Shown here in pieces: positions 1 to 9,000 of a DNA stretch of 18,867 bases. The stretch's first letter is position 1. Every line of letters starts with the position of its first letter. The stretch spans positions 1 through 18,867 of the forward strand of contig JAYEMF010000047.1 in assembly GCA_034717975.1 (NCBI GenBank). The letters run 5' to 3'. The stretch is from Campylobacterota bacterium (GTDB lineage Bacteria > Campylobacterota > Campylobacteria > Campylobacterales > Sulfurimonadaceae). The position numbers were made by a program.

Positions 1-3000
1 ATCGGTCTCGTCCACGAAAGCAAAGAGCTCTCCATCGACAAGGGCAGGCAAAGTATTGTCTACCCTGGTGTTGCGACCACCGTGCAAACCGATTCAGTCA
101 GTGTCACCCTTCCGGGTGACCTCATCCTCTACTCTCAGCAGTACCGTTTCGACAAAATCACCCTTAACAAAATCATCGAAGCGCACATTGGAAAGGAGGT
201 TCGTTATAAAAGCGGCCCAAAGAAACAGCAGGTTATCAAAAAGGGTACGTTGCTGGCTTCAAATCCTGCCGTAGTTGAAACTAAAGATGGGATTGTCAGC
301 GGTATTGCAGCGGGTGATTTTATCTTTGAAAGCATTCCGAGCGAACTCATTATGAAACCTTCGCTGGTCTGGAATGTAGCCGTGCCGCGTTCAACTACCG
401 GCATGATGAACCTTGACTACCTGATCTCACGTATCAGTTGGAAAAGCGATTATATTTTGAACCTGCATGAGAACAGTGGCGACCTTACCGGCTGGGTCAC
501 CGTCGACAACCGTTCGGGGAAACGCTTTGAAGAGGTCAAACTGAACTTGCTGGCCGGTGATATCAATCGAGCCTCAGCACCACAACTCTATGCCGATGCC
601 ATGCGGATGGAGAAGAGTATGGCCGCTGCACCGGTGGCGCATCAGGCACATGAGGGCTACCACTTCTACTCCGTACCCTTCAGCGTCACCCTTGCCAATA
701 ACGAAAAGACCCAAGTCAAATTCATTGATCAGCCGCGTCATAAGCTCAAGCGGCTTTATGATGTCAAAATGCAGCATCCTTTTAGCACCACCACAGAGCA
801 AAAAAGAGCTGTCAGTCAGTATGTTGAACTCTCCAAATTCCCCATGCCGCTTCCAGGCGGAATTGTCCGTACCTACTCTAAAGCGGGTGACACTACCGTC
901 CTCTTAGGCGAAACTCCTCTTGAAAACACACCAAAAAATGAAAAAGTAAAACTGCGTATCGGGACAAATTTCGATCTTATCGCCAAAAACAAATTGACCG
1001 AACGCAGTGATGACAGCCGTTATTATGGGGCAAAAATCGCTTATACGGTGACTAACCGCTCAGATAAGAGCAAAACAGTCGATGTGGATATTCCCGGTAT
1101 CGTTGAACGCACAAAACATCTCAGCACCATCACAACCGAACTGCCTTACACACGTCCGGATGGCTATACACTTCGTTTTACAATTACCCTCAAAGCCGGT
1201 GAGACAAAAACATGGGATGTGGCTTACAGGACAAAGAAAAATTAAAGAGAGGGTTTTATCGCCTCATAGATAGAAGATCCCAGTGCCAGTGCGGCCATAG
1301 CGTAAGCAAGTCGTTCGGCATTGCGGATGGAACGGTAGTGGTTCATAAGTTCTTCATCACCGAGCGGTTCAAAGGATTTGGTGTGAATATATTTGATCGC
1401 ATTGCGCAAAATCACATTACCAAACTCTATACGCCATTTTGGGTAGCCAAGCCTGGCAAATTCATTGGGGTGCTCCTTTTCAAGATATTTGAAAAAGGTA
1501 TTTGTCGCAGCAAGCTGCCAAAGAACAGCTAGGATAAAAATAAATATGCTTGCAGTAAAAAGTGCCATTATTCTGACTCATCCAGGTTATATCCCAACCA
1601 TTTCGGCTCTGAGTAATTTGGAACATCGTCATAGGTAAAGACCGCATAATATTTTTTCACTTTTTTGTCACCGAAGTTATCATAGGTGTACTTATCTTTA
1701 CCGCCATATAGTTTCACTCCGTCAAGCGGTGACGATGGAATATGAAACGGGTTTTTAACTACGGTGACACCGCGAAAGGCCTCATCAACCGGGTTATCCC
1801 AGTCAAGACGGATCATACCGTTCTCTATTGACGTACGCAAATTACTCACAGGAGATACACCGTTTCGGCGTTTTTTGATATAGTCGATCACCAGTTTCGG
1901 ACGAATCTGACGCTTGATATCCATCCAGCTGACCGACTGCAGTTTGCTGTAAGTCTTCTCAGAAGAGGCAGAGATGACAAAAAGAAGTTTCTCCCCCTCC
2001 TGAACCGACCGTACCATCTCTCTCACAGCCAGACGGTCAAAAACAAACCGCTGTGAACGTTCTGCTTTAAGATCTTCTACACTGACATCATAACCGATAC
2101 GCTCAATCACCTCACGCGCTTTGACTTTTTCATAACTCTTTTCGCCATCTTGGTTCTTCTTCACCAGTTCAAGGTGAAAACGCAGATGCCTCAGGGCATC
2201 GATCTTCTGAACCATCATTTCGACATAAGCGTCTGAGATCACTGTCGTCTCTATATCCGGCATCTGACTCAGATCAAACTCCATACAGCTATAGACACGA
2301 CTCCCGTCTCTGTCATAGCCGGCGTCTAGTCTACCCGCATCAATCCCTGCTTTGGCGAGCGTAAACTCACGCTGTGAATAGAGTTCAAGATGGGCCTCTT
2401 CGACGGTGTAGGTGATCTCAAGTTTAGGACGGAAAGTCAAACCGCCGCTAAATTTTCCATAGCCGATGTCCCACTGCATCAATTGCGATGAACGGTCAAG
2501 AGGAAGCTTGGTCGGTCCCTCCATGCGAAAGACCGCTTTACGCCGCTTCAGGCACTCCTGCATCAGTGTACGTTCCTGTTTGGAAAACGCATACGTTCTC
2601 CAAACCCCCTGTGAAAGCTGGTTTGATCGTGTCGGTTGTCCAATATAGCCAAGGATCTTTGCCGACTTGATATCATCGTAGCTGTAAAGCGTATCACAGG
2701 TTCGTTCATCCATCAGGCCCACTCGCCACTCTCCAAATTTCTCAACCTGTACTGAGACGCGATTCATCGGGTAAAAAGAGATGCGTGCCGATTTTATAAG
2801 TGCATTTTCGGGAATACTCTCCAGTGAAAAACTGCTTACTCCGAAACACTCCCCTTTGCCTTCCGAGATTCCGACGAAAAGAGAGTTGTTTCCAAAATGC
2901 TCTTTGTTTCTCTTGGTCTTTTCACCCACGTATCCGATCTCCTCTTTGAGAGAGAACAGGGTACTGGAGAACATGTTGTAAGCCGGTTGCGTCCGGGCAC

Positions 3001-6000: not shown

Positions 6001-9000
6001 CTGGTTGACAAACGGCATCAGCATGTCGAACTTGTCCCGATCATCGAGCAGTGCCATTCCGGCACCGCCCCAGCCGTCAATCGGCTTAAATACCATCTTG
6101 CCCCATTCATCAATCCTTTGATAGAGTCCTTCATGGTCACTCTCACGGTGGCAGATATAAAAGTCAGATGTTTTTACGCCTGCCCTATGAAGCATCATGT
6201 TGGAACGGAACTTGTCTTCAGAAATTTTGAATGAATGAAAGCTATTGATGGTCGGAATGAAATCATTGAGTATCTCGTAGAGATAGACCTGCCCCAGCGT
6301 CTGCTCACCGGCATTGTAAGAGAAGAAAAGGTCCAGATCCAGCATATTGACCCCTTTACAGATCATGGCACCGTTTTGTGACTCGGCGAAACGAAGGTCC
6401 AGATCACGAATCACATCAACCTCTCGCTCTTTCAAGCGTGCTTCTATCTTATCCTGAAGGATGTCACCGCCGCCATTGCTGTACATCCACATACCAACCT
6501 GTCTACTCATCTACTCTCCCCCTCTTTAAAATCCAATTCTTTGCAAAAGTGCTTTAAAAGCGTAGTCGTCAACGCAATACGCTCATCAAAACTGCTTTTA
6601 CGTGCACGCTCATGATGGGTATGGTCGCCATCGCCATAAGGGCCAAAACCATCGAGTGTCACTACCCCTTTTGAGCTGACAATATTTGCATCACTCACAC
6701 CGCCGCGCTCCTCCGTCGGCAATTTTACTCCGGTAATACGCTCAATATCAGTGATAAAATCCAGTGTCGCATCACTGCACTGCATCACATCACGCTGGAT
6801 ACCGCCGCAAAGCATCGACTTCGTTCCCTCTACATATGGTGTGGCCACAATCTCATCGATCGCCTTGAGCACACGTTCTCGCTCATCGGCTCTCTTATAA
6901 CGCAATTCAAAAAGCAGGTGGGCTTTTGGCGAGATCGTATTGGCACCGATTCCGCCTTCGAGTTTACCGACATTGACCGTCGTCCCTTTTTCAAGGTCAG
7001 TCAGGGCAACAAGTGCCTGAAGTTTATACGCCGCTTCGAGATTGGCATCGACACCCTCGGCATAATGGTTGCCGGCATGCTTGGCGAGCCCTTCAATATC
7101 GATGGTGAACGTTCCCACGCCCTTGCGCGCCGTCACCACTTCCATATTGGGACCGGCCGCCTCGTAAACCAGACAGTAATCATACTGAGAGGCCAGTTCG
7201 CCGCTTACCAGTTTCGAATCGTCGCTGCCCGTCTCTTCATCGCTGACCAGCAGCATATCGATATTGGTAATCTCAATATCTTCGGCCTTTAGGTTGCGCA
7301 GTGCCTGAAGGGCAACGATATTGCCGCCTTTCATATCACAGGCGCCCGGACCATAGATCCACTCACCGTCATCCTCGTAATGATCAAAAGTGTCAGGAGG
7401 GAAAACGGTATCGATATGTCCAAGCAGAAGCAGACATTTGCCCTCTTTACGTGAAGAGGTGTAGTAGCGATGCGCACCGATCAGTTCGCGCCGATACTGC
7501 TTGAGATCAAAACCAAGCAGACTCATCCAGCCATCAAAGAGATCACCGACCTTGTCAACACCGGCTTTGTTCTTCGTGTAAGAGTTGATCAACATTGTAG
7601 ATTGTAAATCTTCTAAATAGCCCACACATACCTCTTTTATAGACACAAGAGTATATAAAAATCACATTACACCAGTGAAACAAATAGTAGTTATTATACT
7701 GGATTAAATTTAAAATTTTGGGAGGTTGTCGGTTGGAGTTTAAAAAGTAAAAAGAGGGTGACTCCGCAATTACTTGCGAAGCTCTTGAATACGTGCTTTT
7801 TTACCTGCGAGACCGCGAAGGTAGAAAAGTTTTGCACGGCGAATGCGACCACGACGGATCACTTTGATTTCGTTGATGCTGTCAGTGTAGATTGGAAAAA
7901 CACGCTCGATACCAACGCCGTTAGCGCCGATTTTACGAACAGTGATCGTTTTACCAGTTCCCTGACCGCGCATTGCGATACAAACACCTTCGTAACTTTG
8001 AACACGACTTTTGTCGCCCTCTTTAATCGTTACGGCTAGGCGTACAGTGTCACCTGCACGGAAATCAGGAATGTTTTTCTCAGCGACTTGGGCATTCTCG
8101 AAATTTTCAATGTACTTATTTCTCATATGATGTCCTTTTATTATGCTGTAAAAGCTGCTCTGGCCGAAAGAACTTTGTCTTACATGTGGACAGGGCGAAT
8201 TTTAGTGCCGTGATTTTACTGTGGTTTCCCTTTAAGTATTCTGATGGTGCGGCTTTTTCTTCATATATTGGCGGTTTTCCAAAAGATGGCGCTTCCAAAA
8301 GTGGCGTTTCGAAGCTTTCTGTCTCCAGCGACTCACTGTTCCCCAATACACCATCCACATTTCTCAAGATCGCATCACTCATCACCAGCGAAGGCAGCTC
8401 ACCCCCGGTAAGGACATAATCACCTATGCTGAACACCTCGTCGGCAAAGGTCTCGATCACCCGTTCGTCGATTCCCTCGTAACGCCCGCTGACAAAGGCG
8501 ATATGCTCTTTCTTGGCCAGACGTTTGGCATCGTTTTGCGTAAAGGGTTTGGCTACCGGTGTTGTAAAGATGATGTGCACATCACCTTCTGCCTTAAGAT
8601 GATTGAGCGCATCGAAGAGCGGCTGCGGCGTCATCACCATTCCGGCACCCCCGCCTACGGCTGTATCATCCACCTTTTTATGTTTGGATGCCGAGAAGTC
8701 ACGCGGATTGAGATAACCGATATGAAAGATATCTTTATCCTGGGCACGTTTCAGGATCGAATCCTGAAAATATCCCTCGATCAGATTTTGAAACAGGGTA
8801 ACATAGGTAAGTTTCATCAATAAGAGCTCCAAATTTTGCATTGGGATTGTATCATAAATACATCTAGTGCTATCAAATAGCACACTATTTTCTCTATTGA
8901 TAGACTATCTCAAATAAAATCAATCGTTAAGACTGATACTTATCCAGCTTATCCCCGTCGCAAGCAACGGGGTATTAGCCAGCTTTAAAGCTTCCAAAGT

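What a model noticed while it worked through the whole genome (the two positions that open the first line are those of the whole stretch)
1568..7625. Writer-eraser gene set for C-terminal glutamylation: two RimK-type ligases flanked by cytosolic M14 and M20 carboxypepti [...]
Four co-directional genes encode an 865-aa carboxypeptidase-A-type (M14) enzyme without an evident signal peptide, two RimK/alpha-L-glutamate-ligase ATP-grasp enzymes (442 and 301 aa) and a carboxypeptidase-G2-like M20 enzyme, just upstream of the rplS-trmD-rimM-rpsP genes. I read them as a reversible poly-glutamylation system, with ligases that add C-terminal glutamates and two peptidases that trim them, a bacterial counterpart of the tubulin TTLL/CCP pair and different from the RimK/RimB pair of Pseudomonas. 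Since ribosomal protein S6 here ends in ...TTTEA, a new substrate would be expected.
Evidence so far: g00994 has Peptidase_M14 at res 13-265 (2e-56; 33% identical to mammalian CPA4) and a 600-residue C-terminal part without a Pfam hit. g00995 has RimK (5e-13). g00996 has RimK (2e-22) and GSH-S_ATP and is 27-30% identical to MptN and RimK. g00997 has Peptidase_M20 + M20_dimer and is 26% identical to carboxypeptidase G2. neighbours.tsv: M14 lies next to RimK in at least 303 of 1515 Campylobacterales genomes, out of 727 genomes in all (of 42448 that hold both families); RimK lies near M20 in at least 341 order genomes. The S6 C-terminus was read in call 83. The full-text search listed 6 papers, on RimABK and eukaryotic enzymes, none on this set.
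(Added by a program. Inside this text positions count along the whole contig: contig position 1 is position 1 of the stretch shown here. "Call 12" and the like, gene names such as g00115 and contig names such as C1 are that model's own, and its searches are not shown. The text may have been shortened before it was handed on; [...] marks where a part breaks off. The agent that wrote the report below was given it as the finding of a first reader that could run no searches.)

Follow-up and report, generated by a model that had tools for sequence, protein, structure and literature searches.

The report
Conserved glutamate add-and-trim enzyme cassette
Four neighbouring genes for two amino-acid ligases and two zinc carboxypeptidases form a real, uncharacterised cytoplasmic module. 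It most likely adds and removes glutamate-type residues at the end of a cellular target that is still unknown.

Summary
Four co-directional minus-strand genes encode a CPG2-like M20 peptidase, a RimK-like ligase (301 aa), a LysX-like ligase (442 aa) and an 865-aa M14 carboxypeptidase. None has a signal peptide.

- **Co-occurrence:** in 301 genomes of the order, the M14, the 442-aa ligase and the 301-aa ligase are all found in 85. None is found in 206, and 10 are partial, mostly fragmented assemblies.
- **Spread:** the whole cassette also occurs in seven marine Gammaproteobacteria and one Magnetococcales MAG, with no other conserved neighbour.
- **Fusions:** three natural fusions (M14+M20, M20+301-aa ligase, 301-aa+442-aa ligase) link all four proteins.
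- **Specificity:** the M14 keeps all catalytic residues and has an invariant Arg at the specificity position (CPA 255), as in acid-specific CPO and CCPs.
- **Atypical ligase:** the 442-aa ligase lacks the Asn of the E-x-N magnesium motif. In 11 of 16 orthologs it carries ComEA-type helix-hairpin-helix domains.
- **Ribosomal context:** the ribosomal-gene neighbourhood is lineage-specific, and S6 tails do not differ between carriers and non-carriers.

The add-and-trim reading is plausible. The substrate (protein tail, free poly-glutamate or cofactor tail) remains open. Five earlier notes of this scan describe the same module on other DNA.

The parts
6507..7625 (-). M20 metallopeptidase, CPG2-like (372 aa from GTG 7625; the ORF is open to 7646)
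   Evidence: Pfam M20 7.1e-22 plus M20_dimer 2.6e-16. CPG2 5.5e-22, with the motifs HxD, D, EE, E and H aligned. These residues are invariant in 22 orthologs (H70, D97, E130, E131, E155, H335). NCBIfam best matches are PRK07338 at 205 bits and glutamate carboxypeptidase at 166 bits, both below their cut-offs.
5605..6510 (-). ATP-grasp ligase AG301, RimK/MptN-like. Its ATG overlaps the M20 stop (ATGA).
   Evidence: Pfam RimK 1.6e-21. NCBIfam MptN 127 bits and rimK_fam 124 bits, both below cut-off. The equivalents of RimK residues K100, K141, D187, R189, R203, N213, D248, E260 and N262 are invariant in 22 orthologs. Junction read.
4594..5583 (-). ATP-grasp ligase AG442, core (res 1-330), LysX-like and atypical
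   Evidence: Pfam RimK 2.8e-12. The family profile's best solved match is LysX at 3e-13, against RimK at 7e-4. All RimK invariant residues are kept except N262. The core is basic in most orthologs (median pI 9.3).
4804..4812 (-). E258-C259-A260 of AG442, where RimK and AG301 have E-V-N (the third Mg ligand Asn is missing)
   Evidence: Alignment with E. coli RimK and AG301 orthologs. ECATAFAAFPY is invariant in 16 orthologs. Codons checked.
4255..4593 (-). AG442 acidic tail (res 331-442, with stop), holding an invariant Pro in an acidic motif (DDVPDS here, EEWPSE in other lineages). In orthologs it is followed by ComEA-type helix-hairpin-helix domains.
   Evidence: P348 is invariant. HHH_5 is found in 11 of 16 and HHH_3 in 8 of 16 orthologs, best 2.2e-27. 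The window's own tail gives no Pfam HhH hit at E<=0.01. ComEA chains match the family profile at 6.5e-5. Tail net charge is -23 here, median -11.5.
3266..4165 (-). M14 carboxypeptidase catalytic domain (res 1-300), without propeptide or signal peptide
   Evidence: Pfam M14 1.5e-55. CPA4 1.6e-36. The family profile matches CPT and CPA4 at about 5e-40. H65, E68, R127, N139, R140, H188 and E261 are invariant in 24 sequences.
3425..3427 (-). Arg247, which sits at carboxypeptidase A position 255 at the base of the S1' specificity pocket
   Evidence: The HMMER alignment to CPA4 puts R247 opposite Ile255. It is invariant in 24 of 24 sequences. Codon checked. The meaning of position 255 is taken from passages of PMC4230590.
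1571..3265 (-). M14 C-terminal 565 residues: fn3-like (about 301-400), a conserved middle part with weak CBM96/DNRLRE likeness (about 401-770), and a second fn3-like domain (about 771-865)
   Evidence: fn3 and Ig_J_second hits. fn3 is found in 17 of 24 orthologs and no CBM96 Pfam hit in any of the 24. DNRLRE 3.4e-7 at 30.5 bits, below the cut-off of 34. The ESM Atlas's nearest clusters are CBM96, score 0.92. The domain layout follows the stretches.
7650..7679 (-). Promoter-like site (TTCACT-18-TATACT) in the 123-base gap after rplS, 25 bases before GTG 7625
   Evidence: Consensus scan, 9 of 12 matches. The region as a whole holds no more such sites than shuffles do (9 found against a mean of 11.1). 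This is weak evidence only.

Best explanation
The four proteins work together in the cytoplasm, probably as a physical complex, to add and remove acidic residues at a carboxyl terminus. The residues are most likely alpha-linked L-glutamates.

Proposed roles (all inferred):
- AG301, the RimK-like ligase with a complete catalytic set, extends the chain using ATP.
- AG442 is a LysX-like ligase with a basic core, an acidic tail and often ComEA-type HhH domains. It primes or targets the reaction, possibly forming the first, perhaps side-chain-linked, bond, or serves as a specificity subunit.
- The long M14 carboxypeptidase, with Arg at the specificity position, removes C-terminal Glu/Asp one at a time.
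- The CPG2-like M20 enzyme removes the last glutamate, that is an N-acyl-Glu or dipeptide-type bond.

I favour a conserved cellular macromolecule as the target: a protein C-terminal tail in a nucleic-acid-bound setting such as the ribosome, RNA polymerase or the nucleoid. The cassette moves between phyla without any target gene, and both ligases' nearest solved relatives act on protein C-termini.

Shown: gene linkage, fusions, intact catalytic residues, and Arg at position 255.
Inferred: glutamate as the residue, the division of labour, complex formation, and the kind of target.
For: Linkage.
- The long M14, AG442 and AG301 are all found in 85 of 301 order genomes. None is found in 206. Ten are partial, six of them assemblies 79-95% complete.
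- One genome (G082) holds decayed pieces of both the M14 and AG442.
- In 5 of 5 genomes where the genes are scattered, AG442 and AG301 are still present elsewhere.
- Adjacency: M20+AG301+M14 in 17 of 20 fetched loci, with AG442 as well in 15 of 20. The M20 gene is sometimes inverted but stays adjacent.
- The whole cassette, and nothing else conserved, is found in 7 Gammaproteobacteria and 1 Magnetococcales MAG.
- The gammaproteobacterial copies form one clade in both the M14 tree (support 89) and the AG442 tree (support 99).
- Even the most divergent M14-long clade (38% identity) sits beside AG301 and M20.

Fusions.
- P0122 is M14-long plus M20 in one 1243-aa protein.
- G192 has M20 and AG301 in one open frame of 671 aa.
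- P0271 is AG301 plus the AG442 core in 640 aa.

Chemistry.
- Arg247 corresponds to CPA position 255 and is invariant in 24 of 24 sequences. A basic residue there gives a preference for acidic residues in CCPs and CPO (passages of PMC4230590).
- The M20 metal and catalytic residues are invariant.
- AG301 keeps all RimK catalytic residues.

Other.
- In the window, M20 and AG301 are translationally coupled (ATGA), followed by gaps of 21 and 89 bases.
- The best solved relatives of the ligases, RimK and LysX, act on protein C-termini.
- HhH domains occur in 11 of 16 AG442 orthologs.
Against: - No substrate was identified, and no experiment or expression data exist for any member.
- S6, the only known RimK target, ends in Ala here. 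In the tails that could be read, 3 carriers and 6 non-carriers of the family showed no difference. That test is small and crude.
- AG442 lacks the Asn of the E-x-N magnesium motif, so it may not be a normal ligase.
- The HhH domains are missing in the Magnetococcales form, one gammaproteobacterial form and family f25. They give no Pfam hit in the window's own protein.
- AG301's best named model is MptN, a cofactor glutamate ligase, and the M20's best is a folate hydrolase. That fits a small-molecule reading as well.
- All NCBIfam equivalog and subfamily cut-offs are missed.
- Tyr248 of CPA is His here and mostly Lys in orthologs.
- Complex formation rests on fusions only.
Confidence: 0.4

Rival explanations
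1. Free polymer or oligopeptide. The two ligases build poly-alpha-glutamate, possibly branched or mixed, from free amino acids. The M14 nibbles it from the C-terminus and the M20 splits the last dipeptide. This would be a self-contained, reversible store or osmotic/charge buffer of glutamate in marine bacteria, in the manner of cyanophycin.
For: - The cassette travels between phyla with no fifth conserved gene, so it needs no special target.
- RimK makes poly-alpha-glutamate in vitro, and its partner protease stimulates this (abstracts of PMC10375531 and PMC11957791).
- A dipeptidase-type M20 beside an exopeptidase makes a complete breakdown route.
- The middle part of the M14 weakly resembles CBM96, a module that binds the polycarboxylate alginate (title and abstract start of PMC9971899).
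- The AG442 core is basic.
- All named carriers belong to genera I know as marine (recalled), and the window comes from a brine metagenome.
Against: - CBM96 is not detected by Pfam in any of 24 orthologs.
- The M14 accessory domains are not markedly basic.
- No such polymer is reported for these bacteria.
- Making and breaking the polymer at once would burn ATP without a known regulator.
- HhH domains are unexplained unless they grip a polyanion.
Confidence: 0.3
2. Small-molecule tail. AG301, perhaps with AG442, adds alpha-glutamate to a cofactor or metabolite that ends in glutamate, such as a folate or another pterin, or makes a dipeptide. M20 and M14 take it off again.
For: - AG301's best curated model is MptN (127 bits), and CofF also matches.
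- The M20's best solved relative is carboxypeptidase G2, which removes glutamate from folates (its substrate is recalled).
- ATP-grasp ligase and M20 hydrolase pairs are known for small molecules, for example carnosine (recalled).
Against: - All these scores are far below the models' cut-offs (127 against 350).
- An 865-aa, strongly conserved M14 with four extra domains, and a ligase with DNA-binding-type domains, are hard to justify for a cofactor tail.
- No cofactor-pathway gene is linked in any locus.
- No riboswitch was found.
Confidence: 0.15
3. Recycling or remodelling of cell-wall peptides in the cytoplasm. The M14 would release meso-diaminopimelate or D-Glu as MpaA-type enzymes do, and the ligases would rebuild peptides.
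For: - Cytoplasmic M14 enzymes without propeptide exist in murein recycling (recalled).
- An Arg in the pocket could also bind the second carboxylate of diaminopimelate (inference).
- AG301 weakly matches D-Ala-D-Ala ligase and pseudomurein ligase models.
Against: - The nearest relatives are CPA/CPT-type enzymes and RimK/LysX, not MpaA or Ddl.
- No murein gene is linked.
- The distribution is patchy (about 30% of the order's genomes sampled, 0 of 399 other species of the sampled class), which does not fit a housekeeping recycling role.
Confidence: 0.05
4. Unrelated neighbours: four enzymes that only happen to lie together.
For: No experiment links them, and the genes are scattered in some genomes.
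Against: Co-occurrence in 85 of 95 genomes holding any of the three genes searched, joint transfer across phyla, and three different fusions.
Confidence: 0.03

Closest known systems
RimK / RimABK of E. coli and Pseudomonas (poly-alpha-glutamylation of ribosomal protein S6, trimmed by the protease RimB)
   Same: - An ATP-grasp glutamate ligase of the RimK family is paired with a dedicated peptidase.
- Ligase-peptidase fusions exist in both systems (abstract of PMC11957791; here).
- AG301 keeps all RimK catalytic residues.
   Different: - The peptidases here are zinc exopeptidases (M14, M20), not a retropepsin-like endopeptidase.
- No RimB-type domain is found in the genome.
- There are two ligases instead of one.
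- AG301 scores 56.7 bits against the 331-bit cut-off of the S6-ligase model.
- S6 here ends in Ala.
- No RimA or c-di-GMP link was seen.
Tubulin tyrosine ligase-like glutamylases and cytosolic carboxypeptidases (TTLL/CCP) of eukaryotes
   Same: - The logic is the same: ATP-grasp writers and M14 erasers with Arg at position 255 (passages of PMC4230590).
- Several writers and erasers have divided roles, and accessory domains hold the polymer.
   Different: - No TTL domain was found at E<=0.01.
- The M14 is of the CPA/CPT type, and no cytosolic carboxypeptidase chain is among the 51 solved chains at E<=1e-10.
- The extra domains are C-terminal.
- The second eraser is an M20 enzyme.
- Initiation on a side chain is only my conjecture.
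LysX/ArgX with LysW and LysK (amino-group carrier protein pathway)
   Same: - AG442's nearest solved relatives are LysX and ArgX.
- That pathway also pairs an ATP-grasp ligase acting on a protein's C-terminal glutamate with an M20 hydrolase (recalled).
   Different: - No LysW is found in the genome.
- No kinase, reductase or aminotransferase genes are linked.
- The M20 matches CPG2-type models better than LysK (166-205 bits against 40 bits).
MptN / CofF cofactor alpha-glutamate ligases and carboxypeptidase G2
   Same: They are the best-scoring named models for AG301 and M20.
   Different: - Scores are far below the cut-offs.
- No methanopterin or F420 context is present.
- CPG2 is periplasmic in Pseudomonas (recalled), whereas this M20 has no signal peptide.
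Cyanophycin synthetase / cyanophycinase / dipeptidase
   Same: Under the polymer reading, this is also non-ribosomal, ATP-grasp-driven synthesis of an amino-acid polymer with dedicated breakdown down to dipeptides.
   Different: The enzyme families used for breakdown differ. AG301 has only a weak match to cyanophycin synthetase (8e-11, 40.7 bits). No polymer has been shown.

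Membership tests
RimK family (Pfam PF08443 / TIGR00768), AG301 | RimK-type ATP-grasp domain above the curated score | tested here: inconclusive
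   Pfam 77.2 bits against a cut-off of 21, so met. NCBIfam rimK_fam 124.4 against 143.4, so missed.
RimK family, AG301 | ATP- and Mg-binding residues (RimK K100, K141, D187, R189, R203, N213, D248, E260, N262) | tested here: met
   All align and are invariant in 22 orthologs.
S6:glutamate ligase RimK proper (NF007764), AG301 and AG442 | Equivalog score, and an S6 with a C-terminal Glu acceptor | tested here: not met
   56.7 and 22.5 bits against a cut-off of 331. S6 ends ...TTTEA.
RimK family, AG442 | Complete Mg-binding triad D...E-x-N | tested here: not met
   D244 and E258 are kept, but the Asn is replaced (E-C-A) in all 16 orthologs.
LysX/ArgX amino-group carrier ligases, AG442 | Equivalog score and a LysW-type carrier protein in the genome | tested here: not met
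   LysX model 63.9 bits against 275.6. TIGR01206 lysW gives 0 matches in the 99.9%-complete genome.
M14 metallocarboxypeptidases (CPA/CPT type) | Zinc ligands H69, E72 and H196. Catalytic and substrate residues R127, N144, R145 and E270. | tested here: met
   H65, E68, H188, R127, N139, R140 and E261 are aligned to CPA4 and invariant in 24 sequences.
M14 metallocarboxypeptidases (CPA/CPT type) | Tyr248 capping the substrate. Secretion signal and propeptide. | tested here: not met
   Position 248 is His here and mostly Lys in orthologs. The M14 domain starts at residue 13 with no hydrophobic N-terminus. Lack of a prodomain is also known for CPO (PMC6214572 passages).
Acid-specific M14 enzymes (CPO, CCPs), by function | Basic residue at position 255 of the S1' pocket | tested here: met
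   Arg247 is invariant in 24 of 24. The rule is taken from PMC4230590. The second basic residue, at position 250, is absent (Ile242).
Cytosolic carboxypeptidases (M14D, CCP) | Closest sequence kinship to CCPs, and an N-terminal beta-sandwich domain | tested here: not met
   All 51 solved chains at E<=1e-10 are CPA, CPB, CPT, CPO, CPD or related types, none named as a cytosolic carboxypeptidase. The extra domains are C-terminal.
Carboxypeptidase G2-type M20 enzymes | Two-zinc site (H, D, E, E, H), catalytic Glu, and dimerisation domain | tested here: met
   Aligned to CPG2. Invariant in 22 orthologs. M20_dimer 2.6e-16.
Carboxypeptidase G2-type M20 enzymes | Curated family score | tested here: not met
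   PRK06133 glutamate carboxypeptidase 166.4 against 349. PRK07338 205.3 against 357.
RimABK system | RimB retropepsin-like protease beside or fused to RimK | tested here: not met
   PF05618 gives 0 matches in the genome. That RimB belongs to this Pfam family is recalled.
TTLL glutamylases | TTL domain | tested here: not met
   No TTL family is among the Pfam hits at E<=0.01 for either ligase.
Any of the above | Demonstrated glutamate ligase or deglutamylase activity and a known substrate | not testable with these tools
   Needs biochemistry.

The most novel reading that the evidence does not exclude
The cassette is a bacterial 'glutamylation code' machine with the same logic as TTLL/CCP. AG442, the LysX-like ligase tethered to nucleic acid, starts a glutamate branch or tail on a conserved ribosome-, RNA-polymerase- or nucleoid-bound protein. 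AG301, the RimK-like ligase, elongates it. The Arg255 M14 shortens the chain and the CPG2-like M20 removes the last residue, so that tail length tunes the target's activity. The equally unexplored alternative is a new reversible intracellular poly-glutamate polymer of marine bacteria.
Probability: 0.25. Interest if true: 0.85.

Novelty: new variant of a known kind. Interest (0 to 1): 0.6.

Why it matters
Reversible glutamylation is a major regulatory system in eukaryotes. In bacteria it is known only for ribosomal protein S6 (RimK, RimB).

A second, differently built module would point to an unknown target or an unknown intracellular polymer. This one has two ligases and two metallocarboxypeptidases. 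It is present in about 30% of sampled Campylobacterales species and has been passed to marine Gammaproteobacteria.

Several carriers are cultured: Sulfurimonas sp. CS5, Poseidonibacter lekithochrous, Pseudoalteromonas citrea and phenolica, and Photobacterium species. The question can therefore be tested directly.

My full-text searches found no paper on this gene set. The library lacks most subscription journals.

Tried and rejected
Complex prediction for M20+AG301 was not available. No fold search was possible, so the folds of the M14 C-terminal part and of the AG442-specific regions remain unknown.
- **RNA evidence:** no RNA holder is listed. Only four DNA runs of one brine-metagenome study hold the stretch.
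- **S6 as target:** S6 tails were read in 24 of 30 fetched family loci. My pattern missed 6, among them G015 and G082. The tails are A/E/T/P-rich and end in AAE, AAS, EEA or TEA in carriers (G000, G035, G250) and non-carriers (G280, G173, G149, G297, G195, G096) alike. The carrier status of the other 16 is unknown.
- **Acidic C-termini in this genome:** 35 of 2997 crude ORFs end in EE or three acidic residues, among them the RNA polymerase beta subunit, sigma-70, a ferredoxin and a 59-aa acidic protein (names by my reading). None could be singled out. FtsZ ends ...MRQQKD.
- **A fifth conserved gene:** none was found in 20 + 8 + 10 loci. The 108-aa membrane ORF coupled to the M14 gene is shared only with L002, at 38% identity.
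- **Other searches that found nothing:**
  - No riboswitch beside the cassette in 7 sources.
  - No defence-system models.
  - PHROGs gave only generic matches.
  - The hairpin in the 89-base gap before the M14 gene has z-score 0.01.
  - The two halves of the M14 middle part are not detectably alike.
  - No longer, fused forms of AG442 were found, which is weak evidence.
  - The plasmid search gave only a 2.1-Mb Photobacterium replicon without annotation.
- **Domain charges:** they do not show a strongly basic M14 accessory domain.
- **Direction of transfer** between phyla is not resolved by the quick trees (FastTree, midpoint root, no outgroup).

Full report
**What is there.** The window comes from a Sulfurimonas-like member of the Campylobacterales. 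Its genome is 99.9% complete in 149 contigs, and the best named relatives of the M14 protein are Sulfurimonas. Four minus-strand genes follow rplS:
- an M20 peptidase (6507..7625, GTG start behind AAGAGG; the ORF is open to 7646);
- a 301-aa ATP-grasp ligase, AG301 (5605..6510);
- a 442-aa ATP-grasp ligase, AG442 (4255..5583);
- an 865-aa M14 carboxypeptidase (1568..4165, TTG start behind GAGG).

The M20 stop overlaps the AG301 start (ATGA). The next gaps are 21 and 89 bases. None of the four families has a hydrophobic N-terminus or a membrane segment in 72 ortholog sequences, unlike three control proteins of the window.

**The four genes are one unit.** I searched 301 genomes sampled evenly from the order.
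- The C-terminal 566 residues of the M14 protein give strong matches (E<=1e-60) in 91 genomes. These are nearly all frames of about 860-880 aa.
- The AG442 core is found in 91 and AG301 in 89.
- All three are present in 85 genomes and none in 206. Ten are partial.
  - Six of the ten are assemblies of 79-95% completeness, some with the gene at a contig end.
  - G203, G236 and G010 are 99-100% complete exceptions.
  - G082 holds decayed pieces of both the M14 gene (45 aa) and AG442 (106 aa with two stops).
- The distribution is patchy within families, for example 6 of 24, 10 of 24 and 2 of 24. The genes are therefore gained and lost together.

In 20 loci fetched from 13 families, M20, AG301 and M14 are adjacent in 17, and AG442 joins them in 15. 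In six of these the M20 gene is inverted but still adjacent. In the genomes behind the other loci, the ligases sit elsewhere (5 of 5 genomes). No conserved neighbours accompany them there. The flanks differ from lineage to lineage. The ribosomal operon is next door only in the window's own family (3 of 20 loci; 2 of 27).

**Spread beyond the order.** A scan of one genome per species found full-length relatives (45-47% identity) with the complete cassette outside the order:
- Paraglaciecola, Agarivorans, Pseudoalteromonas citrea and P. phenolica;
- two Photobacterium species;
- Veronia, where the M14 gene is split into three frames;
- a Magnetococcales MAG.

Again no further conserved gene is present. 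The gammaproteobacterial copies form a single clade with the same internal pairs in quick trees of the M14 (support 89) and of AG442 (support 99). The direction of transfer is not resolved. In an even sample of 400 scored genomes of the class of the Pseudoalteromonas citrea genome, only that genome itself had the long M14. One further genome could not be scored. The most divergent long-M14 clade (38% identical) still sits beside AG301 and M20.

**Natural fusions link all four proteins.**
- P0122 joins the long M14 to an M20 domain in 1243 aa.
- The complete genome G192 has M20 and AG301 in one open frame of 671 aa.
- P0271 joins AG301 to the AG442 core in 640 aa.

This is the strongest new argument that the enzymes act on one substrate, probably in contact with one another.

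**The peptidases.** The M14 domain is of the CPA/CPT type.
- Zinc ligands H65, E68 and H188, and R127, N139, R140 and E261, align with the CPA residues and are invariant in 24 sequences.
- The residue opposite CPA Ile255, at the base of the specificity pocket, is Arg247, invariant in 24 of 24.
- In metallocarboxypeptidases this residue contacts the side chain of the residue removed. An Arg there marks the acid-specific CCPs and carboxypeptidase O (passages of PMC4230590).
- CPO also works without a prodomain (passages of PMC6214572).
- Tyr248 is not kept (His here, mostly Lys elsewhere).

The remaining 565 residues are as well conserved as the catalytic domain. They consist of an fn3-like domain, a middle part and a second fn3-like domain.
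- The middle part has a sub-threshold DNRLRE match.
- Its nearest ESM Atlas clusters are CBM96.
- Pfam finds no CBM96 in any of 24 orthologs.
- A related stretch sits at the end of secreted subtilases.

The M20 protein aligns with carboxypeptidase G2 over its length. All metal and catalytic residues are invariant in 22 orthologs.

**The ligases.** AG301 keeps every residue that is invariant between it and E. coli RimK, including the D...E-x-N magnesium site. Its best curated models are MptN and the general RimK family, both below their cut-offs.

AG442 is different.
- Its family profile matches LysX (3e-13) far better than RimK (7e-4).
- It keeps K, K, D-x-R, R, N, GG, D and E, but has E-C-A in place of E-x-N in all 16 orthologs.
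- It has its own conserved N-terminal insert and a 65-residue Trp-rich extension.
- Its core is basic in most orthologs (median pI 9.3), though not in the window's own protein (pI 6.6).
- Its tail is acidic and holds an invariant Pro in an acidic motif (DDVPDS or EEWPSE).
- In 11 of 16 orthologs the tail holds helix-hairpin-helix domains of the ComEA kind (HHH_3, 2.2e-27). The window's own protein has none by Pfam.
- The tail is absent in the Magnetococcales form and short in some others.

**What is absent.**
- No RimB-type domain and no LysW in the genome.
- Only these two RimK-family genes, plus one sub-threshold match.
- No riboswitch and no defence-system model.
- S6 ends in ...TTTEA. Within the limits of a small comparison, S6 tails do not differ between carriers and non-carriers.

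**Reading.**
- The linkage evidence makes a shared function close to certain.
- The Arg255 signature and the CPG2-like M20 make acidic C-terminal residues, most simply glutamate, the likely currency.
- RimK- and LysX-like ligases provide the ATP-driven addition.
- Because the cassette moves between phyla alone, its substrate is either universal or made by the cassette itself.
- I rank a conserved protein tail first (0.4). The nearest solved relatives of both ligases act on protein C-termini, HhH domains are present, and the large conserved non-catalytic parts suggest a macromolecular partner.
- A free or self-primed poly-glutamate comes second (0.3), and a cofactor or small-peptide tail third (0.15).
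- The division of labour I propose is inference by analogy with TTLL/CCP and LysX/LysK. In it AG442 primes or targets, AG301 elongates, the M14 shortens, and the M20 removes the last residue.

**Comparison.** The nearest known system is RimK with RimB. There, too, a ligase and a peptidase act on one poly-glutamate tail and occur fused (abstract of PMC11957791). The peptidase family, the number of enzymes and the likely target all differ here. It works like TTLL/CCP in outline, but it is not a member of either family.

My searches found no paper on this set. Supplements were not consulted. Five earlier notes of this scan describe the same module in other genomes with the same reading.
- the three-gene co-occurrence table;
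- the three fusions;
- the missing Asn in AG442;
- the negative S6, RimB and LysW tests;
- the rarity in the sampled class.

**Limits.** No structure or complex prediction could be run. There is no expression data, and no substrate was found.

Noticed in passing
window 9270-10911 (minus strand): A two-domain cytochrome c gene (10174..10911) and an EamA transporter gene (9270..10169) sit between rimM and trmD. They interrupt the rpsP-KH-rimM-trmD-rplS operon, which is contiguous in relatives L002-L004, L037 and L038.
   Followed up: partly
window 1242-1568 (minus strand): A 108-aa ORF with two hydrophobic segments has its ATG overlapping the M14 stop (TAATG). A relative (38% identity) is found only in L002, so it is not part of the conserved cassette.
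   Followed up: partly
L012 12988-15003 (genome G192): M20 and AG301 are read as one 671-aa frame with no stop between them. The AG301 part still has its own Shine-Dalgarno sequence and ATG.
   Followed up: yes
L060 8001-10600 (Veronia nyctiphanis) and genome G082: There are signs of decay. The long M14 gene is split into three frames in Veronia. In G082 only a 45-aa piece of the M14 gene and a 106-aa piece of AG442 with two stops remain.
   Followed up: partly
G000 contig C121 8556-9044 and loci L115-L144: Ribosomal protein S6 of this family carries a 30-80-residue low-complexity Ala/Glu/Thr/Pro tail of very variable length (total 123-176 aa).
   Followed up: partly
L041 12475-12547: A xanthine riboswitch (NMT1 RNA, 38.3 bits against a gathering score of 36) lies about 1.9 kb downstream of the cassette in Paraglaciecola, before unrelated genes.
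   Followed up: no
window 1-1245 (plus strand): A DUF4139 protein gene, cut by the window start, converges on the cassette's end.
   Followed up: no
proteins P0164, P0167, P0176: Secreted-type subtilases with CAP domains carry, near their C-terminus, a stretch related to residues 407-589 of the M14 protein (E about 1e-30). That part is therefore a mobile module used by other peptidases.
   Followed up: partly
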